NCBI GenBank assembly: GCA_945872355.1
Contig: CAMBZU010000001.1
Coordinates: 16,676-80,675, forward strand
From: Chitinophaga pinensis
GTDB lineage: Bacteria > Bacteroidota > Bacteroidia > UBA4408
Length of the DNA: 64,000 nucleotides
Direction: 5' to 3'
Part shown: piece by piece, positions 11,280-64,000 of the stretch
How positions within the stretch are numbered: position 1 is the first letter of the stretch
Layout: each line of letters begins with the position of its first letter
Notes under the pieces: model-generated
Told to the model about the DNA's origin: nothing
What the model saw: the letters and a program-made list of their open reading frames with translations, nothing else
Databases searched by the model: none
Program-made: the position numbers and the translations under genes

Positions 11280-11672
11280 ATGGAAAAAAATTTTAAATCG
11301 GTCGCAGATCGCGTTAAAGAAATGAGGCTAAAAAAAAATTACTCGCAAGATTATATTGCAAAAAAATTAGGTATCAGCCAAAAGGCATACTCAAAAATTG
11401 AAAACAACGAAACGCGACTTAATGTTGAAGCATTACTTTCTATTTCTGAGATATTAGAAATACCAGTTAATAATTTTTTTGGCGATTCTAAAGCGCCAAT
11501 GCTTAACGACTTTAGTTCTGGCAGAGACGGTGATAATGTAATTTATAAGACGATAAATGACAATGCAAAAGAGGATTTATATCAGCAACTACTCAAAGCG
11601 AAAGAAGAAATTATACAATCAAAAAATACTGAAATTGAAACTTTAAAAAAGCAAATCGAAAAAGTAGTATAA
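11280..11672 (+). CDS. XRE-family HTH transcriptional regulator with C-terminal coiled coil
   Basis: YSQDYIAKKLGISQKAYSKIENNE is a classic Cro/C1-type HTH. Probable start at the internal Met (MEKNFKS); ORF track start 11223. Confidence 0.75.
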   Translation: MEKNFKSVADRVKEMRLKKNYSQDYIAKKLGISQKAYSKIENNETRLNVEALLSISEILEIPVNNFFGDSKAPMLNDFSSGRDGDNVIYKTINDNAKEDLYQQLLKAKEEIIQSKNTEIETLKKQIEKVV

Positions 11673-12915: not shown

Positions 12916-14574
12916 TTAAATTGTATAATTTGCAACAATTGGCATTCTTCTACCCATGCCAAAAGCCTTAGGTGATATCCTAATTACAGGCGCAGCCTGC
13001 TTGCGTTTATATTCATTTTTGTTGACCATATTTAAAACTCTTTTTACCAATTTTTCATCATAGCCAAGCTCGCAAATTTCTTCTGCCGACATTTTATTTT
13101 CAATGTATTGAAACAAAATAGCATCTAACATATCGTATTCGGGCAATGAGTCTGAATCTTTTTGATTTGGCCTGAGTTCAGCAGATGGAGGCTTAGTAAG
13201 GGTGTTTATTGGGATAATTTCTTTTTCTTTATTGATATATTCACAAAGCGCATACACTTCTGTTTTATATACATCTCCAATAACAGCAAGGCCACCGCAC
13301 ATATCACCATAAAGAGTACCGTAGCCAACAGCCATTTCGCTTTTATTGCTTGTATTAAGTAAAATATAACCAAATTTATTGCTCAATCCCATTAATATTA
13401 CTCCTCTTAATCTAGCTTGAATGTTTTCTTCTGCTACACTAAATGCGGTGTCAGCAAAGCTTGGTGCTAATGTTTTTAATACCGATTGAAAACTATCTTC
13501 TATTGGAACTACTTGATGTTTGCATGCTAAGTTGTTTACTAAGGCTAAGGCATCATCAATACTATGTGCACTGCTAAAGGCTGATGGCAGCAAAACAGCC
13601 ATTACATTTTCTTTGCCCAGCGCAGCAACAGCAAGTACAAGTGTTAGCGCTGAATCAATACCACCGCTTAAACCTAAAATTGCTTGTTTAAAGTTTTGTT
13701 TGCTAAAATAGTCGCTGATGCCACAAATTAAGGCTTTATAAATTAATTCATTTTTAGATGGAAAAGCGTACTCAACTATGAGTTTTTCATCGCTTTGAAA
13801 AAGATTGAAGTGCTGATAATTCTCTTTAAAAAAAGGGGCAGTGGCAATAAGTTTTCCCTCTTTATTAAATGCACATGAACCGCCATCAAAAACTAATTCT
13901 GTTTGAGCGCCACAATGATTTACATAAATTAAAGGCAGTTGATATTTAATGGCATTTCTTTGAAGTACCTTTAGTCTAGTTTTATGTTGCACATAACTAA
14001 AGGGCGAGGCCGCAATATTAATGATGCAGTCGGGGTTTAATTTCATTAGCTCTTGCATAGGGCTAATGGTATACATTTTAGCATGATTTAATGGGGTAAA
14101 TGTTTCATCTTGTTGGTCCCATAAATCTTCACATATGGTAAGTGCAATTTTATGGTTATTAAATGCTATTATTTCAAAGTTGATATTTGGCTCAAAATAC
14201 CTGTACTCGTCAAATACATCATAATTTGGGAGCAATGTTTTTTTAATTATTTTTTCAATGCATTTATTGTTTAAAAAATAGGCGGCATTAAAAAGTCTTT
14301 TTCCGGTTTCATTATTATTTATGGCTGGTGCTCCAATAATTGCTGCTATTCCATCGCAATGCATGGCTATAAGTGCAATTGTTTTTGAACATTCTTCAAT
14401 AAAATGATTGGATTCTAAAAAATCTAGGGGAGGATAACCACAGAGCGATAATTCTGGAAAAACGATTAAATCAACCGAATCAACTTTAGCGATGTTGATT
14501 TGTTCAATTATTTTAGCGGCATTCGCATTAAAATTACCAATATGAAAGTTAAGTTGTGCCCAGGCAATTTTCAT
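12916..14574 (-). CDS. nadE: Glutamine-dependent NAD+ synthetase
   Basis: 552 aa; N-terminal CN-hydrolase domain plus C-terminal PP-loop SGGIDS. Confidence 0.9.
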   Translation of the reverse strand: MKIAWAQLNFHIGNFNANAAKIIEQINIAKVDSVDLIVFPELSLCGYPPLDFLESNHFIEECSKTIALIAMHCDGIAAIIGAPAINNNETGKRLFNAAYFLNNKCIEKIIKKTLLPNYDVFDEYRYFEPNINFEIIAFNNHKIALTICEDLWDQQDETFTPLNHAKMYTISPMQELMKLNPDCIINIAASPFSYVQHKTRLKVLQRNAIKYQLPLIYVNHCGAQTELVFDGGSCAFNKEGKLIATAPFFKENYQHFNLFQSDEKLIVEYAFPSKNELIYKALICGISDYFSKQNFKQAILGLSGGIDSALTLVLAVAALGKENVMAVLLPSAFSSAHSIDDALALVNNLACKHQVVPIEDSFQSVLKTLAPSFADTAFSVAEENIQARLRGVILMGLSNKFGYILLNTSNKSEMAVGYGTLYGDMCGGLAVIGDVYKTEVYALCEYINKEKEIIPINTLTKPPSAELRPNQKDSDSLPEYDMLDAILFQYIENKMSAEEICELGYDEKLVKRVLNMVNKNEYKRKQAAPVIRISPKAFGMGRRMPIVANYTI

Positions 14575-22743: not shown

Positions 22744-22764
22744 ACACTTGAATTATTTGCGTTA

Positions 22765-22789
22765 AGGATTGGAGCGGAAATCCTTTTTG
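22765..22789 (+). terminator. Rho-independent terminator after mntH-usp
   Basis: aggatt-ggagcgga-aatcct hairpin plus ttttt. Confidence 0.6.
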
Positions 22790-23034
22790 GCATTTATGAC
22801 AAAGAGATTGCAGCAAAAAGCCTGACCCAAAGGGAACGCCCATTAAATTATTACTATGCTTAAGGTTAAATTGTTTTACAAGTTGCTTAAAATCAAATAA
22901 TGATGAGCAATTAAAGAAACGCATATACACTAATAAACGTAGTGTAGGGTAAAAGTTGATTCGGTTTGTATTGTGTAATTTGGGTTAAAAAACAAATCGC
23001 TTAACTTCGCATTTTAAATCACCAAATTTAATTT

Positions 23035-56534: not shown

Positions 56535-56613
56535 AGGGAGATTAGCTCAGCTGGTTCAGAGCATCTGCCTTACAAGCAGAGGGTCACTGGTTCGAACCCA
56601 GTATCTCCCACCA
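56535..56613 (+). tRNA. tRNA-Val (anticodon TAC)
   Basis: Cloverleaf: acceptor GGGAGAT/ATCTCCC, D-arm GCTC..GAGC, anticodon stem TCTGC/GCAGA with loop CTTACAA, T-arm with GGTTCGAAC, 3' CCA encoded. Confidence 0.8.
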
Positions 56614-56621
56614 ATGATAGA

Positions 56622-56656
56622 AAGCCTTTCAAGCAATTGAGAGGCTTTTTTTTTAG
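56622..56656 (+). terminator. Terminator hairpin after tRNA-Val
   Basis: agcctttc..gagaggct stem followed by a T9 run. Confidence 0.55.
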
Positions 56657-56734
56657 GTTGGTTTAAACATTGTATCAATTTTGTTTTTCTTGATTTTATT
56701 GTAAAAATTGGTTTTTTAGCGCCAATTTATAGGA

Positions 56735-58282
56735 CTACATTAATATCAACTTCCATACAAAAAGGACTATCAATACTACAGCTAAACCCAAACCAAAAGC
56801 CAAAGCAAATTGTTTTCCCAATGTTTTTTTATCAGGAATAATCTCCTTCATTCTTTCAATAATTTCTACATCATCTTTTTTTGTTAAAAAAGTGACTATA
56901 AGCCATGTTAAAGTTGTCAGAAGCGTAACAATTATTAATCGTGCTTCCTCAAAAGCAAAGCCATAAACAACACTATTTTTATGATATAAATAGGGAAAAA
57001 GTAATGTATAAACACCCGACGAAATCATAGCACTTAATTGCGACCAAGCATTAATGCGATACCAAAACCATCGTAAAATATAGACAGGTGCAACGCCCGC
57101 AGCAATGCTAAATACTACCTTTAACAGCGATTGCAAACTATTTAAATTAAAAGCTATTACAACGCCGCATACAGATAAGAGCAGCATAGAAAAAAAAGAA
57201 ATGATTTGAAAATGTTTCTCACTTTGCTTTGGATTTAAGTACTTTTTATATAAGTCAACAGTTAAAAATGCCCCTCCCCAACTTAACTGAGATTCGGCAG
57301 TTGTTATAAACATTCCAAAAAATCCTATTAAACAAAAGATCTTAAAAAATTCGGGCACACAATTAAATATCGTGTAGATAAATTGAGATTCTCCTAAATT
57401 AGTTTGCTGTTGTGATAAAACTAAAATAGCCATAATTACAATAAAAAAGGATAAAAAGGCATAAAGTAAAATAGGAAACAAGGCAGTTAAAATAGCGTTG
57501 CGCTTGCCTTTTACAGCTGTAAATCTTGCCATTTCTGGCCCACCGCCATCAAATAGCTGAGCACTCCACCATTGTATAAAAACAAATGCAAACCAAGATG
57601 TCCAAGCAAGTTTAACTTCAGATGGTGGAAATAAATTTAATTTAAATGGACCTGAATTTTTAAAATTTACGATGGCAACTTTTAAGCCTCCACTTGTAGT
57701 GTACAAATAATAAAATGCCGTAAACAACACTATAAAATAAATAAACGAATGAAAGAAATCTGTTTTTAATTTAATTTGGAAACTATTTTTTAAAGCAAAT
57801 ACTATTAAAATTAACCCTGTTATGAAAATTGAAGAAAATTTATCAATATGAAAATAAATTTCAATCACTCGCGAAAAAGCCAATATATGATAACTTAAAA
57901 GGATGGCAACAACAAGCCCGCCAACATAAAAAGCACGAAATGCATGTAACACTTTGGCACTAAGACCTGAATAGCGAAATAATAAAAATTGATTATCTGT
58001 TATAAAATCAAGCTTTGACCACAAGGGGGCAAAAACAAATGGCACTATAAATGCGCCTAACAAACTCGACCAAAAAATCCAAAGGCCCCACATGCCTTGA
58101 GCGGCTAAAATGCCAGTAATAACTTGCCCCTGCTCAACAGTAACATAGTACATAAATAAGGAAATGCCCGAAATAAACCACGTAGTTTTTTTACTTGTTT
58201 TAAAAACGCCTTTTAATAATTCCCTTTTTTCAAAGTAAGTAATTAAAAGTATAACAACAATATAAATAAAAAGAACAACCAT
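56735..58282 (-). CDS. Sodium:solute symporter-family transporter
   Basis: 515 aa, about 13 TM segments, SSF-like N-terminal pattern (FISGISLFMYYV..GMWGLWIFW). Confidence 0.65.
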   Translation of the reverse strand: MVVLFIYIVVILLITYFEKRELLKGVFKTSKKTTWFISGISLFMYYVTVEQGQVITGILAAQGMWGLWIFWSSLLGAFIVPFVFAPLWSKLDFITDNQFLLFRYSGLSAKVLHAFRAFYVGGLVVAILLSYHILAFSRVIEIYFHIDKFSSIFITGLILIVFALKNSFQIKLKTDFFHSFIYFIVLFTAFYYLYTTSGGLKVAIVNFKNSGPFKLNLFPPSEVKLAWTSWFAFVFIQWWSAQLFDGGGPEMARFTAVKGKRNAILTALFPILLYAFLSFFIVIMAILVLSQQQTNLGESQFIYTIFNCVPEFFKIFCLIGFFGMFITTAESQLSWGGAFLTVDLYKKYLNPKQSEKHFQIISFFSMLLLSVCGVVIAFNLNSLQSLLKVVFSIAAGVAPVYILRWFWYRINAWSQLSAMISSGVYTLLFPYLYHKNSVVYGFAFEEARLIIVTLLTTLTWLIVTFLTKKDDVEIIERMKEIIPDKKTLGKQFALAFGLGLAVVLIVLFVWKLILM

Positions 58283-58358
58283 TTATTTTTACAAAAAATT
58301 TAAGCTAATATATGAGTGTAATTGTAAACTACTTAATTAAAAACTTACTAAATAGAAC

Positions 58359-58652
58359 TTAAGCTGCATTATTCATTTTTTCTTCCCAAGCCATTTTTAA
58401 TTCTCCTTCATTTTTATACATATAAGATTTCTTCTTAGCATCCCATTTTATTGGGGCATTTAGCTCATTCCGCATAAACCTTAAATAATGATGAGTTGCT
58501 CGCTCGCTTGCAGCTAAGTAAGTGCTGAGTGTTTTTGGCGTAACTGTGCGCTCAGATTTTATGAGATTATTTATTCTTATGATTTTTCTAATATCCAAAA
58601 TGTAAAATAAATTTTTAATTATTGGTAAAAAAGTTTGCTGCTGTTTCTGCAT
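58359..58652 (-). CDS. Stand-alone winged-HTH protein resembling the N-terminal HTH_11 domain of WYL/DeoR-type regulators (possibly truncated)
   Basis: 97 aa. RTVTPKTLSTYLAASERATHHYLRFMRNELNAPIKWDAKKKSYMY resembles the wHTH of WYL-domain regulators; no WYL domain follows. Confidence 0.45.
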   Translation of the reverse strand: MQKQQQTFLPIIKNLFYILDIRKIIRINNLIKSERTVTPKTLSTYLAASERATHHYLRFMRNELNAPIKWDAKKKSYMYKNEGELKMAWEEKMNNAA

Positions 58653-58714
58653 TACTAATTAATAAAACATATTTTTTAAAAAACGTGAGTTTAAAGTATA
58701 ATTTCAAGTTCATC

Positions 58715-58728
58715 TTAGTTCAAGTAGT
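58715..58728. promoter_or_regulatory. Shared promoter-region motif TTAGTTCAAGTA (copy 1)
   Basis: 12-14-nt motif about 63 nt upstream of the wHTH gene start; identical core at 58907-58920 and as reverse complement at 60258-60271. Confidence 0.5.
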
Positions 58729-58906
58729 ATTTATTTGTAAAATAGTTTGTCGCTAAATATTTACAATAATATTTAAATACTGCAATTACAAGTTCTACTG
58801 AGCTAAAATTAGTGCTAGAGCTATAATTAAATTCCATTTTAAATGAATATATAATATTAGAACCGATTTACCTCTTTTTTAAATTACTGCACAATTATTA
58901 GTTCAT

Positions 58907-58920
58907 GTTAGTTCAAGTAT
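58907..58920. promoter_or_regulatory. Shared promoter-region motif GTTAGTTCAAGTAT (copy 2)
   Basis: 47 nt upstream of the start at 58967; perfect 14-nt inverted match to 60258-60271. Confidence 0.5.
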
Positions 58921-58966
58921 AAATATTTAGATTCTATGTTTATTATTTATTTAATTTTATAAAATT

Positions 58967-60067
58967 GTGCCCAAACCTAAATACATATTATCGCCGTACT
59001 TAAAACAAGGCTTGTTTTGGAAAGTAATTGAAACCATTGCATTTCCTATTTACACAAAGGCTGATTGCCGGAAGGTGTGTGAACTTTTTGAGCTAAAAGG
59101 ATTGCCTGTGATATCAGAAAGTACATTGTACCGACTTTTTTTATTGGAGGGAAGTGATAACATTCCCTATTTGCAAACATTAGATATTTTAGCTAAATTT
59201 TGTAATTACAAAGATTGGTACAGTTTAGAAAAACATTTAAACGAACTATCAACATTTGAATTGTCCTTTGGAAAAGTACATGTCAAAAATAGGAGTACAT
59301 TAAGTTTACTAACCTCTTGCATACATCATAACGAATTGAAATCAGTTTATGATTTTTCAGAACAATTTGATGGAAGCCTTGAATTACAAAAAAAAGGAGC
59401 GCTCGGCGAAGAATTTTATAAAGCACTAAAAACAAATCCAAACAAAAACGACTTATTCTTTAAAAATTTTTCCAAATTACCAATAGTTAGAGAAGCATTT
59501 TTTGAATATATGGCTGATCCAACTTTTATAATACCTAGTTACGAAATTGGCTTGAAATATTATCTACTTGGAATAAAACCAGAACAGTCATCAAAATCAT
59601 TACAAGACTTTGTTTTTGGAAATTGTCTATTGTTTAGGTATTATTTTTTAGATAACGATAAATCAGAGTCAAAGAAATTAGGCATAAAATTATATGAAAC
59701 GTATAATTTTTCGTCTAAGGATTTAGCGTCAATACATATCTTTCCAAAAATTCGTTTTTTGGCTTATAAAATATTTTATTTAAATATAAATGGCACAATA
59801 CAAGAAATACAAAAATATGAAATTTGGTTATTAAATTATGTTTCAAAAATTACACAAAAACTTACTTTAGAAGAAAAAAGAATTGTGCTCTTTACAATAG
59901 CAGATGTGTTTGTAAATAATACGAGCACTAAAGTTGATATGCATAATCAATTAAAGCTAATTTTTGGCGACGTATTAAATACATTGCCATCCTTTGTAAG
60001 TGCAACCTCACTGAAGGATGCGCTGCCTTACTTGAACAGAAATGCCGCTAAAATCTGGAAAATATAG
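58967..60067 (+). CDS. Hypothetical protein with N-terminal HTH-like segment (366 aa)
   Basis: LKGLPVISESTLYRLF resembles an HTH recognition helix; the remaining about 300 aa have no recognised motif. Confidence 0.4.
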   Translation: MPKPKYILSPYLKQGLFWKVIETIAFPIYTKADCRKVCELFELKGLPVISESTLYRLFLLEGSDNIPYLQTLDILAKFCNYKDWYSLEKHLNELSTFELSFGKVHVKNRSTLSLLTSCIHHNELKSVYDFSEQFDGSLELQKKGALGEEFYKALKTNPNKNDLFFKNFSKLPIVREAFFEYMADPTFIIPSYEIGLKYYLLGIKPEQSSKSLQDFVFGNCLLFRYYFLDNDKSESKKLGIKLYETYNFSSKDLASIHIFPKIRFLAYKIFYLNINGTIQEIQKYEIWLLNYVSKITQKLTLEEKRIVLFTIADVFVNNTSTKVDMHNQLKLIFGDVLNTLPSFVSATSLKDALPYLNRNAAKIWKI

Positions 60068-60257
60068 CTTAATAAATTATACCAATTACAACAAGCTATT
60101 GTGTCAAAAAGTGTGTTATACTTTTTAATGTTTTACGTACTAAAAAATAAGTACTATAATATATGATGCGCGATACGATATGCATCTTTTATAAAACATA
60201 ATTCGTTCATAAAAAAAACGAGGAATCAAAATTTAAGATTATTCCAATTATAGAGCA

Positions 60258-60271
60258 ATACTTGAACTAAC
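60258..60271. promoter_or_regulatory. Shared promoter-region motif ATACTTGAACTAAC (copy 3, inverted)
   Basis: 61 nt upstream of the start at 60332. Confidence 0.5.
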
Positions 60272-60331
60272 TTAAACTAAAATAAAAAATATCAAAAATA
60301 TATATTTGGTAAACATTTAAAAACTAAAATC

Positions 60332-60712
60332 ATGTCAGAAATCAGCGTTTCAGGAAGAACAAAAGTAAAATCATTTTATCAAGCTTTTTTAAAAGCTTAT
60401 CCTTATTTACATGCAGGCTTACAATATCCTGATGGAAAACCAGTAGATGCTGAATCTACCGTAGCAAATGCGCGAAGCAAATCTATAGGTGGCGATTATA
60501 CTCCAACTGGTGACTCAGAACTTTCAGTAAGAGGCAATTTAAATATTGGAACATTTGAAAAGCGTTTTAAAGAAATATTTTCAATTACATGCCAAGTGCA
60601 TTTTAAAAAGAATGGAAAATGGGTTGTAACGGGGCAGAAATATGATGCTATGACATTAAACGACGCAAACACCTTAATAAAGAATGAAGGTGCAGATTTA
60701 ATAGAATTGTAA
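60332..60712 (+). CDS. Hypothetical protein, tandem paralog A (126 aa)
   Basis: Shares the FY..F...YPYL N-terminal motif and the STVANARSKS / STLANARGRS block with the downstream ORF. Confidence 0.45.
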   Translation: MSEISVSGRTKVKSFYQAFLKAYPYLHAGLQYPDGKPVDAESTVANARSKSIGGDYTPTGDSELSVRGNLNIGTFEKRFKEIFSITCQVHFKKNGKWVVTGQKYDAMTLNDANTLIKNEGADLIEL

Positions 60713-60715
60713 GAA

Positions 60716-61189
60716 ATGGCGGAATTAAAAATAAACGGAAGATTAATAGTTGATAATTTTTATAAAAAATTTGAAGCCATATATCCCTATTTAAATCCAG
60801 CATTATTTTATCCCAAAGAAATAGGAGGAGGTGAAGTTGACACCTCCTCTACTCTTGCCAATGCAAGAGGAAGGTCTTTGAGGCAAGATATTAATGGCTA
60901 TACATCAACTGGTCAAGCAGAAATAAATGTAATAGGCGAAATGAAGATCAAAGATTTTCAAACCGAATTTGAAAATCTTTTCAAAGTAAAGTGTGCTATC
61001 AATTGCAGAATGCCAAATAAAAAGTTTTTTGGATTAGGTAAAACGGAATTTAAATGGGCCGCAGTTGTAAATACCGAATTCGGAAAACTGAATTTACATG
61101 AAGCAAATGCTGCACTCGAAAATCATGGTGCGCAAAAAGTAACTGAGGTTAGAACAAAAGGAAATAATTTGGGGGATAAATTCTTATAA
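60716..61189 (+). CDS. Hypothetical protein, tandem paralog B (157 aa)
   Basis: Paralog of 60332-60712; 3-nt spacing between genes suggests co-translation. Confidence 0.45.
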   Translation: MAELKINGRLIVDNFYKKFEAIYPYLNPALFYPKEIGGGEVDTSSTLANARGRSLRQDINGYTSTGQAEINVIGEMKIKDFQTEFENLFKVKCAINCRMPNKKFFGLGKTEFKWAAVVNTEFGKLNLHEANAALENHGAQKVTEVRTKGNNLGDKFL

Positions 61190-61269
61190 CATCTCAACTT
61201 CGAAATCTTAATTTTTAAAATAAAAACAAAATCAACAAAAAAAATGAAACTAACAAAAAATTAAATATT

Positions 61270-61479
61270 ATGGCAAGAACAATGAAAGACGGGAAATTTG
61301 GCGCAGAAGGTAAAGCATATGCGTTTGCTTCAGACAAAATACCCTGTGAAAACTGCAGAAAAATCTTAATTTATAACAAAAGCAAGGCTATACACACATA
61401 TAGTTCAATTGGTATTCTTGGAAAGAAAGACCATAAACAATTTTGCAGTTGGAAATGTGCAGAGCAGTATCATGGTTAA
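61270..61479 (+). CDS. Small zf-FCS/TRASH-like Cys4 zinc-ribbon protein (69 aa)
   Basis: CENC ...(about 30 aa)... FCSWKC arrangement (CxxC..FCSxxC). Confidence 0.45.
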   Translation: MARTMKDGKFGAEGKAYAFASDKIPCENCRKILIYNKSKAIHTYSSIGILGKKDHKQFCSWKCAEQYHG

Positions 61480-61588
61480 AATCTTACAACAATATTTTTT
61501 TGAAAAATTAAAGTAGAGACCAGAACCCACTAAAAAACGGGGCGTAATCCGAAAAGTCAAAAGAGTACGGCTAAAAAAAATCTTACAT

Positions 61589-63349
61589 ATGCATTCAAAT
61601 ATAATTGATAAACCAAGAAAAGAAGGCGCCGATGATTTACTTGGCGTAGATAAATATACAGATGCCTTAATACAATTTATTGAGTCGTGCCAAATGCCTA
61701 CAACATTGGCTATTCAAGGGGAATGGGGAAGTGGAAAAACTTCTTTGTTAAATCAAATTCGCCACAGGCTTTGTGAATCAGTTTTAAATTCAAATGAAAT
61801 TAATAACCAAAAACCTTATTATGGTATTTGGGTAAATACTTGGCAATATTCTTTAATGAAAAGTAAAGATGAGGCCCTGATTGCAATTATTGGTGGACTT
61901 ACCAATGAAATATTAAACATCATAAAAAGCAAACACGAAACCAAAGCAACTGCAACAATAAATAAAGTAAAAGGTTTATTTGGTAAACTTGCAAAGGCAG
62001 GTGCAAAAGCTGCTATCAGTACAGTTGGGATTGAATCAGATATTGTTGATTCACTAACTGAAAGTGATGAAGGTGAAGTAAGTTTGATGCAATTTAAAAA
62101 AGCATTACAAGATGCCATTGAACAATGCTTAACGGAGGATAGAAAATCAGGAAATAATAATCGTGGTTTTATTTTTTTTATTGATGATTTAGATAGAATT
62201 GATCCGCCGGTTGCGGTTGAAATATTAGAATTAATAAAAAATATTTTTGAAGTTGAAAACTGCATTTTTATTTTGGCAATCGATTACGAAGTTGTTGTAA
62301 AAGGGTTGGTACCAAAATTTGGCCCACTTACAGAAAAGAATGAAAGAGAATTCCGTTCTTTTTTTGATAAAATAATTCAGTTACCTTTTTCAATGCCTAT
62401 TGCAAATTATGATGTTGCAAAATTCCTTATTCACTCATTAAAAGATATAGGATATATTGATGATAGATTTGAAAAAGACGAATCCCTTAAAGAAAAATTA
62501 ACTGATTTAACCTTATTATCCGTTGGTACTAATCCAAGATCATTAAAACGACTTATAAATACATTATCACTTTTAAATATCATTGGAAAAATTGAAGAAG
62601 ATGCTGAAAAACAAATTCATGAATTATTTATTAATTATGCATTAGTCTGCATACAGATTGCATATCCAAAAATATATGAATTATTAACGCAGGAACCTTC
62701 CTATAGAGAATGGACGGAGCAAACAGCAAAAAAATTAAGGTTACCCGAGTTAAATGAATCTCAATTAGTAGTTTTAAATAGCACCAATGAATTTGATGAA
62801 GAATGGGAAAAAGTGCTATTCAGAAAATGCCAACAAGATCCTTATATGGCATCTAGAGCATTTCAAATTTCGCAACTATTAAATTATATTATAGAATTGG
62901 TTCCGGAAAACTTAAATTTTACAGAAGAAATAACACGCATCATAGGATTTAGCTCAGTAACAAGTGTTAATCTTGATCCTACTCCAAAGACAATAATAAA
63001 AGGGAATAAAGTTAGATTTGAAGGCTTTGCATCCTTAGAAGAAATGCTGAAATTAAATAAACATTCAGCAGAATATATTTCTAATCTTAAAACAATTCAC
63101 GATAAAATAAAAGATGAATTTAAAGATTTAATCCAAATTAACTACACACCAAATTTTGTAACATTTATATGTGTTTTTCCAAAAGGAAGGAGTAAAACAT
63201 TTTTATTTATCAGATTCAAAAAAAGCAATGTCATGTTTGAATTTGCTGGACAAACAATCCTAATAAATCAATCATCTGATTTTACAACTGAAGTTATGGG
63301 TAAATTAAAGTTAGCTTTTAACAATTTATCATCAAAGGAATTAAATTAG
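61589..63349 (+). CDS. KAP-family P-loop NTPase
   Basis: Walker A GEWGSGKTS in the KAP context (LGVDKYTDALIQFIES...LAIQGEWGSGKTSLLNQI), Walker B FIFFIDDLDRIDP; 586 aa. Confidence 0.75.
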   Translation: MHSNIIDKPRKEGADDLLGVDKYTDALIQFIESCQMPTTLAIQGEWGSGKTSLLNQIRHRLCESVLNSNEINNQKPYYGIWVNTWQYSLMKSKDEALIAIIGGLTNEILNIIKSKHETKATATINKVKGLFGKLAKAGAKAAISTVGIESDIVDSLTESDEGEVSLMQFKKALQDAIEQCLTEDRKSGNNNRGFIFFIDDLDRIDPPVAVEILELIKNIFEVENCIFILAIDYEVVVKGLVPKFGPLTEKNEREFRSFFDKIIQLPFSMPIANYDVAKFLIHSLKDIGYIDDRFEKDESLKEKLTDLTLLSVGTNPRSLKRLINTLSLLNIIGKIEEDAEKQIHELFINYALVCIQIAYPKIYELLTQEPSYREWTEQTAKKLRLPELNESQLVVLNSTNEFDEEWEKVLFRKCQQDPYMASRAFQISQLLNYIIELVPENLNFTEEITRIIGFSSVTSVNLDPTPKTIIKGNKVRFEGFASLEEMLKLNKHSAEYISNLKTIHDKIKDEFKDLIQINYTPNFVTFICVFPKGRSKTFLFIRFKKSNVMFEFAGQTILINQSSDFTTEVMGKLKLAFNNLSSKELN

Positions 63350-63534
63350 TAATACTGATGTTTTATAATGTTTGGATTTAAAGGAAAATATGGCTTTTCA
63401 TTTTCTTGGAAAAGATTGTTGGGAATTAGTGGGATGCGCAATAGTGTTGCAAATAAAACTGGTATACCAACAACAAGAGGCGGTGTTGAAAGGAAAATAG
63501 GCAGGCTGTTATTAAATTTAATATTTGGCAAAAA

Positions 63535-63867
63535 ATGAAAAATAATCCTGCAGAATTAAATTCTAATTTTTCTATTAAATTAATGCTATTTTATCTTTTA
63601 TCTTCTTTTTTTGGCGGCTTGTTGTTTAGCATATTATCCTATAGGTCAAGAAAGAAAGGTAACACCGGGTTTGGTTGGATTATCTTATCAATAGTATTCA
63701 TTGTTATTTTTAGCTACATATCATTTGCATTATATAAAACATCGAGTGCAAATCACGATGCGTTTTGGTATTATTTAAGTTTAAGCACAATTGTAGCAAA
63801 TAGCATTGCCCTTTTCATTTTATTAATGTCATTTTTTTTAAATAGAAGTAATGGGATTAGTTCGTGA
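63535..63867 (+). CDS. Small membrane protein (110 aa, 3 TM)
   Basis: Hydrophobic segments; no motif. Confidence 0.4.
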   Translation: MKNNPAELNSNFSIKLMLFYLLSSFFGGLLFSILSYRSRKKGNTGFGWIILSIVFIVIFSYISFALYKTSSANHDAFWYYLSLSTIVANSIALFILLMSFFLNRSNGISS

Positions 63868-64000
63868 ACTTTTTGATGAGGTCATTCCTCTGCCAAATGC
63901 GATGCAATCAAAAATCATTGGTAAAAATGAAATGAGTGCGGTATATAACCTTAGCTATGCGTTTTTAAATACTATATTTCAAATAATAGATTGCATTATA

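What the first reader, a model, noticed from the sequence alone, without database searches (positions are those of the whole stretch)
58359..63867. Accessory locus with KAP-family NTPase, tandem small paralogs, Cys4 mini-protein and HTH regulators: candidate uncharacterised defense/abortive-infection system
The last about 5.5 kb of the window departs from the surrounding housekeeping genes. It is AT-rich, with long promoter-like intergenic stretches. It holds a truncated wHTH regulator of the kind that flanks defense islands (BrxR/CapW-like HTH_11), a 366-aa HTH-containing unknown and two tandem paralogous unknowns separated by 3 nt. These are followed by a 69-aa zf-FCS/TRASH-like protein, a 586-aa KAP P-loop NTPase and a small membrane protein. 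KAP NTPases include PifA, the phage T7 exclusion protein of the F plasmid, and commonly sit in defense islands. The particular gene combination here is not one I recognise as a described system. A tRNA-Val lies 1.7 kb upstream, though no integrase is present.
Basis: partly seen in the sequence, partly recalled or inferred. Interest (0 to 1): 0.8.

Follow-up and report, generated by a model that had tools for sequence, protein, structure and literature searches.

The report
KAP NTPase cassette in a variable island
The end of the window holds the first two thirds of a swappable ten-gene cassette, built around a KAP ATPase of a kind recently shown to block phages, that a resident regulator appears to control and that close relatives have lost or replaced.

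Summary
The genes are real and sit where stated. The region is AT-rich: 29.3% GC against 33.3% elsewhere, the second lowest of 234 windows of 5.5 kb.

The operon runs past the window end as C0a, C0b, Cys4, DUF805 RNA leader, KAP NTPase, a missed 56-aa basic peptide, three small membrane proteins, a UDG-superfamily protein and an outer-membrane barrel.

The 366-aa protein is conserved at the island's left edge. Its fold resembles RRNPP regulators. A tandem-decamer site lies upstream of it, of the small wHTH-like gene and of every alternative cargo.

Close relatives keep the flanks but carry other cargo. Two retain a stub of the C0a start. One 98%-identical contig swaps KAP for other genes exactly at the RNA leader.

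The same gene set recurs in shuffled order in 25 independent contigs. KAP matches the PADLOC models PDC-S20 and PifA. KAP proteins with variable C-termini were shown to be antiphage in 2026.

A defence or conflict role is likely but unproven. The BrxR/CapW "truncated regulator" reading is not supported. Verdict: a new variant of a known kind.

The parts
56536..56613 (+). tRNA-Val(TAC). With the SSF transporter gene (56735-58282, -) it forms the conserved left flank of the variable island.
   Evidence: ARAGORN and Rfam tRNA 71.8 bits. The SSF flank is shared at 84-85% nt identity with L017, L018, L020 and L024.
58359..58652 (-). Small wHTH-like protein. The ORF is 97 aa; the conserved core is about 79 aa starting at the LDIRK motif. 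It is divergent from the 366-aa gene.
   Evidence: Conserved at 79-94% identity in L026, L005, L018 and L024. Family hits are weak only: HTH_11 E 0.11 and Mga HTH E 0.56.
58704..58726 (+). Tandem-decamer site 1 (AGTTCATC-TTAGTTCAAGTA). Read on the minus strand it lies 63 nt upstream of, and in the same orientation as, the small wHTH-like gene.
   Evidence: The exact 12-mer occurs 3 times in 64 kb, all in this locus, against 0.73 expected with up to 1 mismatch. It is conserved in 20 of 27 loci at equivalent positions.
58898..58920 (+). Tandem-decamer site 2 (TTAGTTCATG-TTAGTTCAAG-TAT), 47 nt upstream of the 366-aa gene. It forms a 23-nt inverted repeat with site 3.
   Evidence: the repeat finder I10, 91% complementary. 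Conserved in L004, L005, L017, L018, L020, L024 and L026.
58967..60067 (+). C3: 366-aa all-helical protein, the putative island regulator. It has an N-terminal five-helix HTH-like domain and a TPR-like domain.
60258..60280 (-). Tandem-decamer site 3, 52 nt upstream of the C0a start codon. It is followed by a Bacteroidetes-type -7 box, TATATTTG, at 60301-60308.
   Evidence: The roughly 110-nt upstream region is conserved in front of five different cargo genes (alignment A7). The decamer sequence co-varies in distant lineages.
60332..60712 (+). C0a: 126-aa cytoplasmic protein made of two tandem units of about 50 aa. It is the first gene of the operon.
   Evidence: Paralog of C0b. The orthologue is 82% identical in L028 and 41% in L034. 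The C0 superfamily is present in 22 of 25 loci.
60716..61189 (+). C0b: 157-aa paralog, separated from C0a by 3 nt.
61270..61479 (+). 69-aa Cys4 zinc-ribbon-like protein. It is a lineage-specific insert, absent from L004.
   Evidence: Hits below cut-off only: zf-FCS E 0.0037 at 17.5 bits (cut-off 22.4) and YdaE E 0.0058. A homologue elsewhere in the L020 island is also preceded by a DUF805 RNA.
61508..61576 (+). DUF805 RNA motif (Rfam RF03081), a 5' leader ending 12 nt before the KAP start codon.
   Evidence: 65.3 bits against a gathering score of 51.1, full length 1-68. The same motif, or DUF805b, lies directly upstream of C0a/C0-like, Cys4, 74/75-aa and 605-aa genes in sister loci; in L020 and L086 the gene it precedes was not established. 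Homology with L002 ends inside it.
61589..63349 (+). KAP-family P-loop NTPase, 586 aa. Walker A is GEWGSGKTS and Walker B is FIFFIDDLDR. No TM segment is predicted. The C-terminal domain (aa 469-585, nt 62993-63343) is shared with a TerB protein of sister loci.
   Evidence: Pfam KAP_NTPase 2.8e-38. PADLOC PDC-S20 2.1e-32, PifA 7.4e-31, QatA 2.1e-18. Motifs are invariant in A10. The C-terminal homology to TerB259 has E 9e-22. No TM.
63368..63538 (+). It starts 18 nt after KAP and overlaps the next gene by 4 nt.
   Evidence: 73-96% identical across loci in which the neighbouring gene is 34-35% identical. 331 relatives in metagenome contigs. Relatives also sit in a TerD/TerY-P/TerC cluster.
63535..63867 (+). 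C6: 110-aa membrane protein with three predicted TM segments, weakly DUF805-like.
   Evidence: TM prediction. Best DUF805 E-value among family members is 0.0035. It follows C7 directly in 26 of 67 loci that have downstream sequence.
63851..64000 (+). First 50 codons of C12, a 134-aa protein with two predicted TM segments. It overlaps C6 by 17 nt and is cut by the window end.
   Evidence: Clustering. The full gene is present in L026, which is 95.4% nt identical to the window over 7.4 kb, followed by a 64-aa one-TM protein and the start of the UDG-like gene.

Best explanation
The finding is the left part of an accessory cassette of about 9.5 kb. It sits in a hypervariable island next to tRNA-Val and an SSF transporter gene, in a freshwater Flavobacteriia-like genome.

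Two parts should be kept apart.

(1) A resident regulatory module. It comprises the small wHTH-like gene, the 366-aa protein C3 (HTH-like N-terminus plus a TPR-like sensor domain resembling RRNPP receptors) and three tandem-decamer operator-like sites. One site lies in front of each of the two regulator genes and one in front of whatever cargo follows.

(2) The cargo in this strain, a single tightly packed operon: C0a, C0b, Cys4, DUF805 RNA leader, KAP NTPase, 56-aa basic peptide C7, three small membrane proteins (3, 2 and 1 TM), a UDG-superfamily protein and an outer-membrane beta-barrel.

I propose that the cargo is a multi-component conflict system, most likely antiphage. The proposed mechanism is as follows. 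The KAP NTPase is the NTP-driven switch. Its C-terminal domain, shared with a TerB protein that occupies the same neighbourhood in sister loci, docks it to a common partner at the inner membrane (C7 and the small membrane proteins). Output is membrane permeabilisation, as described for PifA, and/or attack on modified phage DNA by the UDG-like enzyme.

Shown here: gene content, operon packing, conservation of the neighbourhood, variable presence, operator conservation, the RNA motif and the domain sharing.

Inferred: regulation by C3, physical association of the proteins, and the defence function itself.
For: KAP identity and intact catalytic motifs. A 2026 study showed that four KAP P-loop NTPases with diverse C-terminal regions protect E. 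faecalis from phage, and that both Walker B and the C-terminal region are needed (PMC13552941).

Operon packing. Gaps are 3 nt between C0a and C0b and 18 nt between KAP and C7. Overlaps are 4, 17, 14 and 8 nt between later genes. No plus-strand terminator is predicted inside the operon.

Conserved neighbourhood in shuffled order. In 25 non-redundant contigs of at least 6 kb the counts are C0 22, C7 23, C3 19, UDG-like 19, KAP 16, C6 16, C9 16. KAP occurs with C0 in 15 of 16.

Variable presence. Relatives with 84-90% nt identity in the flanks carry other cargo after C3. L018 and L024 keep the first 16-60 nt of C0a as a stub. L002, 98% identical across C0a to the RNA, has other genes in place of KAP. 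The KAP segment is more similar to L004 (95%) and L017 (92%) than the flanks are (84-90%).

Defence-type company. PDC-S01 ATPase (7e-99), a TerB protein with a PDC-S30 hit, T5orf172, HSDR_N and caspase-WD40 occur in sister islands. C7 relatives sit inside a TerD/TerY-P/TerC cluster, next to what look like type I R-M genes (read from N-terminal sequence only) and next to AAA_14-type ATPases.

The C8 protein belongs to the UDG superfamily. Pfam gives 25.0 bits against a cut-off of 24.3. 27 of 28 PDB profile hits are family-4 UDG, UdgX or SPO1-type. The motifs CAMDSLPP, YITDIYK and PHISGAANG are present. UDG-like glycosylases have antiphage precedents (PMC11078745; bioRxiv 10.1101/2025.10.29.685425).

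Operator conservation and co-variation. C3 fold.
Against: No experiment supports the function. Only KAP matches any defence HMM; C0a, C0b, Cys4, C7, C6, C12, C9, C8, C21 and C3 match none.

The modules also occur apart. Seven C0-bearing loci lack KAP. KAP stands without C7 in L016. C7 occurs alone in many distant contigs. A single obligate complex is therefore not established.

Alternative cargo at the same regulated site includes T9SS-secreted surface proteins (L018, L020). The island is thus not purely a defence island.

KAP orthologues at 64-66% identity are very numerous. That also fits a stable accessory function.

The locus sets were ascertained using C0, C3, KAP and C7 as baits, which inflates the co-occurrence counts.

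No relatives of KAP or C0 were found in viral contigs. This neither supports nor opposes a defence role.
Confidence: 0.5

Rival explanations
1. The genes form a mosaic of independent single-gene or two-gene defence modules that merely share a recombination-prone island and a common promoter or leader architecture. The KAP NTPase would act alone, like the PDC-S20 or EF_KAP type, using its own C-terminal domain. The C0 pair, the C7 membrane module and the UDG-like protein would each be separate systems.
For: PADLOC models PDC-S20 as a single-gene candidate. Experimentally tested KAP proteins worked as single ORFs. The modules recombine freely. KAP is absent from L010, L011, L015, L044, L045, L058 and L069. 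KAP occurs without C7 in L016. The element preceding C7 varies between KAP, UDG, C0, TerB259 and OMP. Swaps occur exactly at shared leaders.
Against: KAP, C7, C6, C12, C9, UDG and OMP overlap or nearly abut in the window lineage, which suggests translational coupling. The same rare families keep re-associating in different orders and at different chromosomal sites (L028, L034, L086). KAP and a TerB protein share a dedicated C-terminal domain, which suggests a common partner.
Confidence: 0.27
2. The cassette is a Ter-like envelope or metal stress-response module, that is membrane homeostasis rather than an immune system. It would be regulated by C3 in response to an environmental signal.
For: TerB-domain proteins (409 aa and 259 aa), an OmpA/MotB-like protein and an OM barrel belong to the neighbourhood in sister loci. 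A C7 relative lies inside a canonical TerD-TerY-PP2C-kinase-TerC cluster. Four of the operon products are small membrane proteins or envelope proteins. KAP orthologues are numerous and well conserved.
Against: The window's own cassette has no TerB, TerC or TerD gene. Presence and absence among close relatives, together with the defence-type neighbours, fits conflict systems better. The classical ter operon itself confers phage inhibition, and TerY-P is listed as a defence system (both from my own knowledge), so this rival is not cleanly separable from the best explanation.
Confidence: 0.15
3. The region is a degraded prophage or integrative-element remnant at a tRNA gene, with no current cellular function.
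For: It lies 1.7 kb from tRNA-Val. It is AT-rich. The small Cys4 protein has weak hits to prophage YdaE and to PHROG families. KAP matches phrog_8614.
Against: There is no integrase, no structural or replication genes and no direct repeats of the tRNA end. No relatives were found in IMG/VR. All ORFs are intact and highly conserved across many contigs, with C7 at 73-96% identity.
Confidence: 0.03

Closest known systems
KAP-family P-loop NTPase antiphage proteins (F-plasmid PifA; PADLOC candidate PDC-S20; EF_KAP and metagenomic KAPs of PMC13552941)
   Same: KAP_NTPase domain with intact Walker A and B. The best defence-HMM hits are PDC-S20 and PifA. As in the 2026 study, a conserved NTPase core is followed by a C-terminal region that differs between subtypes.
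   Different: No transmembrane helix is predicted. The match to PifA covers only the N-terminal 315 of 720 profile positions. The gene is embedded in a tightly packed multi-gene operon rather than standing alone. Its C-terminal domain is shared with a TerB protein. It has not been tested experimentally.
QatABCD
   Same: QatA is also a KAP ATPase, and a weak HMM match exists (PADLOC 2e-18; NCBIfam 77 bits).
   Different: The NCBIfam equivalog cut-off is 600 bits. No QatB, QueC-like QatC or TatD-like QatD is present.
Ter / TerY-P / TerB-containing defence and stress systems (ter operon, TerY-P, Shango)
   Same: Sister loci carry TerB-domain proteins. The C7 peptide family also occurs inside a TerD-TerY-PP2C-kinase-TerC cluster. 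The predicted organisation is membrane-linked.
   Different: The window cassette itself has no Ter-domain gene. There is no vWA/kinase/phosphatase triad and no helicase.
Defence DNA glycosylases of the UDG superfamily (Brig1; integron UDG-like proteins)
   Same: The downstream C8 protein is a UDG-superfamily member that retains motif A-like and motif B-like sequences.
   Different: C8 lies beyond the window end. It carries an N-terminal extension of about 75-140 aa. It is co-operonic with KAP and membrane proteins rather than acting as a single gene. It has no detectable sequence similarity to any PADLOC model.
RRNPP-type regulators (NprR, Rgg, Rap, PlcR, AimR)
DUF805 / DUF805b RNA motifs (Rfam RF03081, RF02914)
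   Same: A full-length match above the gathering score, lying upstream of a gene, in Bacteroidota, in an operon that includes a weakly DUF805-like membrane protein.
   Different: Here it precedes a KAP NTPase gene and lies inside an operon. In sister loci it precedes many unrelated genes and coincides with recombination break points. Its function is not known.
BrxR / CapW (wHTH-WYL-WCX defence-island regulators)
   Same: A small wHTH-like protein encoded divergently at the edge of a variable island.
   Different: The conserved protein is only about 79 aa, with no WYL or WCX domain. The HTH_11 hit is not significant. It is conserved at this size in relatives, so it is not a truncation.

Membership tests
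KAP family P-loop NTPase (Pfam PF07693) | Match to the KAP_NTPase profile above the curated cut-off | tested here: met
   132.3 bits against a cut-off of 20, residues 21-329.
KAP family P-loop NTPase (Pfam PF07693) | Intact Walker A (GxxGxGKT/S) and Walker B (hhhhDDLDR) | tested here: met
   GEWGSGKTS and FIFFIDDLDR are present and invariant in six diverged homologues.
KAP family P-loop NTPase (Pfam PF07693) | Transmembrane helices inserted in or near the NTPase domain (described for many members by Aravind et al. 2004, cited in PMC13552941) | tested here: not met
   No 19-residue window reaches Kyte-Doolittle 1.6. This is a crude predictor. The feature is not universal in the family, so membership stands.
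PADLOC PDC-S20 (single-gene phage-defence candidate) | Match to a PDC-S20 HMM over most of the profile | tested here: met
   PDLC04959 at 2.1e-32, profile positions 17-382 of 464. Three further PDC-S20 models also match. No curated cut-off is available.
PADLOC PDC-S20 (single-gene phage-defence candidate) | Stand-alone gene architecture | tested here: not met
   The gene is followed after 18 nt by C7 and by overlapping genes. It is preceded by C0a, C0b and Cys4 in the same orientation.
PifA | Full-length similarity to PifA | tested here: not met
   The match covers only profile positions 6-315 of 720, which is the NTPase part.
QatABCD | QatA equivalog score, plus QatB, QatC (QueC-like) and QatD (TatD) neighbours | tested here: not met
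   NCBIfam QatA scores 77 bits against a cut-off of 600. No such neighbours are present.
BrxR/CapW-type regulator | wHTH (HTH_11) plus WYL plus WCX domains, about 300 aa | tested here: not met
   HTH_11 E 0.11 at 12.9 bits against a cut-off of 25. The protein is 97 aa with a conserved core of 75-79 aa.
RRNPP regulators | HTH domain followed by a TPR-like peptide-binding domain | tested here: inconclusive
RRNPP regulators | Adjacent small secreted propeptide gene | tested here: not met
   Only unconserved ORFs of 21-29 aa lie in the 264-nt gap downstream of C3. Upstream genes differ between relatives.
DUF805 RNA (Rfam RF03081) | Covariance-model score at or above the gathering threshold, full length | tested here: met
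   65.3 bits against 51.1, model positions 1-68 of 68.
UDG superfamily (for the downstream C8 gene, outside the window) | Pfam UDG above cut-off and conserved active-site motifs | tested here: met
   25.0 bits against 24.3. 27 of 28 PDB profile hits are UDG family 4, UdgX or SPO1-type, each individually weak at E 0.04-0.24. Motifs are visible in A6. Glycosylase activity was not tested.
zf-FCS / YdaE small zinc-binding proteins (69-aa protein) | Profile match above cut-off; four Cys ligands | tested here: inconclusive
   The CxxC...FCSxxC pattern is present. zf-FCS scores 17.5 bits against 22.4 and YdaE 16.7 against 35.
Ter / TerY-P systems | TerB, TerD, TerC or vWA-kinase-phosphatase genes in the locus | tested here: not met
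   None in the window. TerB proteins occur only in sister loci.
tRNA-integrated mobile element / prophage | Integrase, att repeats, phage genes | tested here: not met
   No integrase ORF. No repeat of the tRNA 3' end. No viral-contig relatives.

The most novel reading that the evidence does not exclude
The cassette may be one form of a widespread, undescribed, envelope-associated immune system of Bacteroidota. Its proposed components are the tandem beta-grasp-like C0 proteins, a KAP or TerB switch sharing one docking domain, the ultra-conserved C7 peptide with three small membrane proteins, a UDG-like glycosylase and an OM barrel.

The system would be carried in an expression site whose resident RRNPP-like regulator and tandem-decamer operator drive whichever cargo is plugged in. 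The orphan DUF805 RNA would be the shared leader at which modules are exchanged. That would give the DUF805 RNA its first functional context. It would also describe a cassette-swapping island that needs no integrase.
Probability: 0.3. Interest if true: 0.78.

Novelty: new variant of a known kind. Interest (0 to 1): 0.6.

Why it matters
KAP NTPases have only recently been shown to be antiphage proteins, and how they work is unknown. This locus offers a natural multi-gene context that recurs across many Bacteroidota: a basic peptide, small membrane proteins, a UDG-like enzyme and a TerB protein that shares the KAP C-terminal domain. That context points to concrete partners and outputs that can be tested.

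Independently of function, the locus shows a tidy architecture for accessory-gene turnover. A conserved regulator and operator stay in place while cargo is replaced, with break points at the promoter and at the DUF805 RNA leader. The DUF805 RNA is an orphan motif for which I found no published function.

Bacteroidota are poorly covered by defence-system catalogues. A validated system and regulator from this phylum would therefore be useful.

Tried and rejected
- PADLOC, NCBIfam, Pfam and PHROG scans of every window protein and 30 neighbours. Only KAP, and in sister loci PDC-S01, TerB, OmpA/ZorB-like and T5orf172, gave meaningful hits.
- An exhaustive profile search for C0 found only 17 representatives and no link to a known family.
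- Profile searches of C3 and of the shared KAP/TerB C-terminal domain against PDB and Pfam gave nothing significant. A Tad2/DUF2829 resemblance at E 0.55 is noted but not relied on.
- Prophage or viral origin: no relatives of KAP or C0 in IMG/VR.
- Invertible-segment reading of the 23-nt inverted repeat flanking C3. I set it aside because the same element precedes several co-oriented cargo operons in tandem (L004), no recombinase is nearby and the site co-varies like an operator. It is not formally excluded.
- The idea that the 97-aa protein is a fragment of the 238-aa gene found in relatives was rejected: the two show no similarity.
- The idea that L002 carries a broken KAP was rejected: its 122-aa and 139-aa products are unrelated to KAP.
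- Literature searches for the DUF805 motif, PDC-S20 and a KAP+TerB+OmpA combination found nothing. The supplement of the DUF805 discovery paper is not held.

Full report
OBSERVATION

The 126-aa and 157-aa proteins are true paralogs (34% identity, E 2e-26) and lie 3 nt apart. The 586-aa protein is a KAP-family P-loop NTPase (Pfam 132 bits against a cut-off of 20). The 69-aa protein has a CxxC...FCSxxC pattern but only sub-threshold zf-FCS and YdaE hits. The 110-aa protein has three predicted TM segments. tRNA-Val lies at 56536-56613.

The region has 29.3% GC against 33.3% for the rest of the window. It is the second lowest of 234 windows of 5.5 kb, mostly because of three intergenic stretches at 16-22% GC.

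One is a 56-aa ORF at 63368-63538. Another is a DUF805 RNA motif at 61508-61576. A third is three copies of a conserved repeat. The last is that the operon continues beyond 63867: a further gene starts at 63851 and is cut by the window end.

FULL EXTENT OF THE UNIT

Contig L026 is 95.4% identical to window 56582-64000. It continues with a 134-aa two-TM protein, a 64-aa one-TM protein and the start of a further gene.

In L004/L014 (a Bacteroidia MAG) the operon is complete: 126, 157, KAP 586, 56, 110, 134, 64, 296 and 273 aa. From KAP onward, all junctions are 18 nt or less, or overlaps.

The 296-aa protein (C8) belongs to the uracil-DNA-glycosylase superfamily. Pfam gives 25.0 bits against a cut-off of 24.3. 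27 of 28 PDB profile hits are family-4 UDG, UdgX or SPO1-type. The motifs CAMDSLPP, YITDIYK and PHISGAANG correspond to UDG motifs.

The 273-aa protein has a signal-peptide-like N-terminus and a weak DUF481 (outer-membrane barrel) hit.

A VARIABLE ISLAND WITH A RESIDENT REGULATORY MODULE

The 366-aa protein (C3) belongs to a family of 71 clusters, all about 365 aa.

Contigs whose C3 is 93%, 88% and 77% identical (L018; L020-L023, which are NCBI MAGs; L024) keep the SSF transporter gene and C3 in place. They are 84-90% nt identical there. After C3 they carry quite different genes: T9SS-secreted proteins, a 1417-aa T9SS protein, or a UDG-like protein plus a DUF4116 protein.

A conserved 424-aa gene marks the right-hand edge in L004, L017, L018 and L024.

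About 110 nt upstream of the first cargo gene is conserved whatever the cargo. It contains the element TAATACTTGAACTAACTTAAACTAAAAT, then a Bacteroidetes-type -7 box TATATTTG (window 60301-60308), then ATG TCA. In L018 and L024 the first 16-60 nt of the C0a reading frame survive as a stub in front of unrelated genes. This shows directly that the C0/KAP cassette was lost or replaced there.

The KAP segment of the window is 95% identical to L004 and 92% to L017, while the flanks are 84-90% identical. That pattern suggests exchange of the cassette between lineages.

THE REPEATED SITE

The 12-mer TTAGTTCAAGTA occurs exactly three times in the 64-kb window, all in this locus. Only 0.73 matches are expected even when one mismatch is allowed.

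Each copy is part of a tandem decamer (TTAGTTCAxG TTAGTTCAAG). Two copies lie upstream of C3. One of these, read on the other strand, is 63 nt upstream of the small divergent gene. The third lies 52 nt upstream of C0a in inverted orientation.

The arrangement is conserved in 20 of 27 loci. L004 has an extra copy in front of a TerB gene, and L024 has one in front of a UDG-like gene.

In distant lineages the architecture persists with a changed sequence: TTGAACCAAG-TTGAACCAA in L034, CATGAACCAA-CATAAACCAA in L011 and CTCGGACAAA-CTCGGACAGG in the GC-rich L010. This is the behaviour of a protein-binding operator.

The 97-aa protein is a second candidate. It is not a truncated BrxR/CapW. Its HTH_11 hit is E 0.11, and a core of 75-79 aa is conserved intact at 79-94% identity in four other contigs.

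THE CASSETTE PROTEINS

C0a and C0b belong to a narrow family. There are 29 clusters among 5.8 billion proteins and 17 representatives among 1.84 billion. Forms of 102, 121, 132, 135 and 156 aa in other loci extend the family.

KAP has invariant Walker A, Walker B, NEREFRSFFDKIIQxPFSMP and NPRxLKR motifs. Its C-terminal 120 aa or so differs between subtypes. In the window's subtype, residues 469-585 are homologous to the C-terminal half of a 259-aa TerB protein found in sister loci (E 9e-22 and 2e-23). That domain has no significant Pfam or PDB match. The Tad2 hit at E 0.55 is not evidence.

C7, the 56-aa peptide (pI 11.9), is 73-96% identical across loci in which the adjacent membrane protein is only 34-35% identical.

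CONSERVATION OF THE NEIGHBOURHOOD

KAP orthologues at 64-66% identity over the full length are very numerous. Two of them, at different chromosomal sites, sit in the same gene company.
- L028-L033: C0a, OmpA-like, UDG-like, TerB409, KAP, 346 aa, C7, C6, C12, C9, OM barrel.
- L034/L035 (Flavobacterium sp.): C3, 348 aa, C0-like, 89 aa, OmpA-like, KAP, C7, OM barrel, C6, C9, UDG-like.

A metagenome scan with the C7 profile found 331 relatives. In 25 non-redundant contigs of at least 6 kb the counts were C0 22, C7 23, C3 19, UDG-like 19, KAP 16, C6 16, C9 16, C12 12, OM barrel 10, OmpA-like 10 and TerB 7. The order was shuffled. KAP occurred with C0 in 15 of 16.

The loci were fetched using these same proteins as baits, so the counts are biased upward. 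Even so, re-association of rare families in different orders and at different sites is the usual signature of functional linkage.

The modules are separable all the same. Seven C0 loci lack KAP. KAP in L016 has no C7. More distant C7 relatives lie in other contexts. One is inside a canonical TerD-TerY(vWA)-PP2C-kinase-TerC cluster in L104 (confirmed by Pfam). One, in L115, is next to large ORFs and a recombinase-like ORF whose N-termini look like type I restriction-modification genes and a serine recombinase; this was read by eye and not scanned. Others are next to AAA_14-type ATPases in L094 and L113.

THE DUF805 RNA

The Rfam DUF805 motif (65.3 bits against a gathering score of 51.1) fills the gap between the Cys4 gene and KAP. 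It ends 12 nt before the KAP start codon.

The same motif, or the related DUF805b, lies directly upstream of C0a and a 74-aa gene in L028, a C0-like gene in L017 and L051, Cys4 in L020, a 605-aa gene in L018 and a 75-aa gene in L024. Further copies in L020 (9618-9686) and L086 (4052-4085) were not tied to a particular downstream gene.

Contig L002 is 98.0% identical to window 60319-61582 but diverges inside the 3' end of the motif. After it L002 encodes two unrelated proteins instead of KAP. The leader is therefore both a recurrent 5' element of island genes and a break point for module exchange.

I found no published function for this motif. The discovery paper's main text does not mention it, and its supplement is not held.

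WHAT IT MOST LIKELY IS

The KAP protein matches PADLOC's single-gene candidate PDC-S20 (2e-32) and the NTPase part of PifA (7e-31). A 2026 study showed experimentally that KAP NTPases with diverse C-terminal regions protect against phage, and that both Walker B and the C-terminal region are required (PMC13552941). UDG-like glycosylases also have antiphage precedents (PMC11078745; bioRxiv 10.1101/2025.10.29.685425).

Sister islands hold a PDC-S01 ATPase (7e-99), T5orf172, HSDR_N and a caspase-WD40 protein.

Taking these points together with the presence/absence polymorphism, the best reading is an accessory conflict cassette, most likely antiphage. In the proposed mechanism KAP is the NTP-dependent switch, the C7 peptide and small membrane proteins form its membrane platform or effector, and the UDG-like enzyme is a DNA-directed effector. 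The whole would be expressed from a regulator-controlled site. I put this at about 0.5.

The main rival (0.27) is that these are independent small systems sharing a recombination-prone, commonly regulated island. A Ter-like envelope-stress role (0.15) cannot be separated cleanly from defence. A prophage remnant is unlikely (0.03): there is no integrase, there are no phage genes and there are no IMG/VR relatives.

Evidence against a pure defence-island reading: the same regulated site carries T9SS surface proteins in L018 and L020, and nine of the ten cassette proteins match no defence model.

NOVELTY AND SCORE

The KAP component is a new member of a kind that is now known. Three things are not described in anything I could find: the conserved multi-gene company, the docking-type domain shared by KAP and TerB proteins, and the resident regulator and operator together with the DUF805 leader as exchange points. 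I rate the finding a new variant of a known kind, with interest 0.6.

Noticed in passing
window 61508-61576 (+): Rfam DUF805 RNA motif (65.3 bits, gathering score 51.1) directly upstream of the KAP gene. The same motif or DUF805b precedes many different genes in sister islands. The 98%-identical contig L002 diverges exactly inside its 3' end.
   Followed up: partly
window 22754-22831 (+): Flavo-1 sRNA motif (Rfam RF01705, 53.3 bits against 42). It is consistent with a Flavobacteriia-type genome.
   Followed up: no
window 58704-58726, 58898-58920 (+) and 60258-60280 (-): Tandem-decamer operator-like sites (TTAGTTCAxG TTAGTTCAAG). They are conserved upstream of C3, of the small wHTH-like gene and of every alternative cargo. 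The sequence co-varies in distant lineages.
   Followed up: yes
L018 about 11430-11470 and L024 about 12965-12990: A stub of the first 16-60 nt of the C0a ORF (ATGTCAGAAATAAGCG...) remains in front of unrelated cargo genes in relatives that lack the C0/KAP cassette.
   Followed up: yes
window 62993-63343 (KAP aa 469-585); L017 10997-11347; L010 6069-6410: The KAP C-terminal domain is homologous to the C-terminal half of a 257-259-aa TerB protein (E 9e-22 and 2e-23). The domain has no Pfam or PDB assignment. The only resemblance, to anti-Thoeris Tad2, is not significant (E 0.55).
   Followed up: partly
L104 7837-16096: A 52-aa relative of the C7 peptide lies between vWA genes inside a canonical TerD x2, TerY(vWA) x3, PP2C, kinase, TerC cluster.
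   Followed up: partly
L004 1339-3366: A PDC-S01-type AAA_14/DUF4143 ATPase gene (PADLOC 7e-99) lies between C3 and the cargo. It is flanked by direct repeats of about 200-300 nt, seen as duplicated spurious ORFs, which suggests an insertion that duplicated the intergenic region.
   Followed up: no
window 58775-58800; alignment A8 columns about 315-337: A second conserved tandem repeat (TTGCAAGTTGTTGCAAGTT in relatives) lies between the two upstream decamer sites in the divergent promoter region.
   Followed up: no
L004 14228-15502; L017 17666-18940; L018 14961-16235: The conserved 424-aa gene at the right edge of the island shows weak similarity to C3 (E 1e-4 over 169 aa). The island may therefore be bracketed by two related helical proteins.
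   Followed up: no
L034 3691-3960; L017 2721-2984 (-); L051 14478-14741; L064, L057, L068: An 89-aa basic protein that looks coiled-coil-like from its sequence (structure not predicted) recurs next to KAP genes in several lineages (56-96% identity). It is absent from the window.
   Followed up: no
L028 2216-2295: The related cluster in L028 also lies next to a tRNA gene, and a 23S_rRNA_IVP four-helix-bundle gene sits beside it.
   Followed up: no
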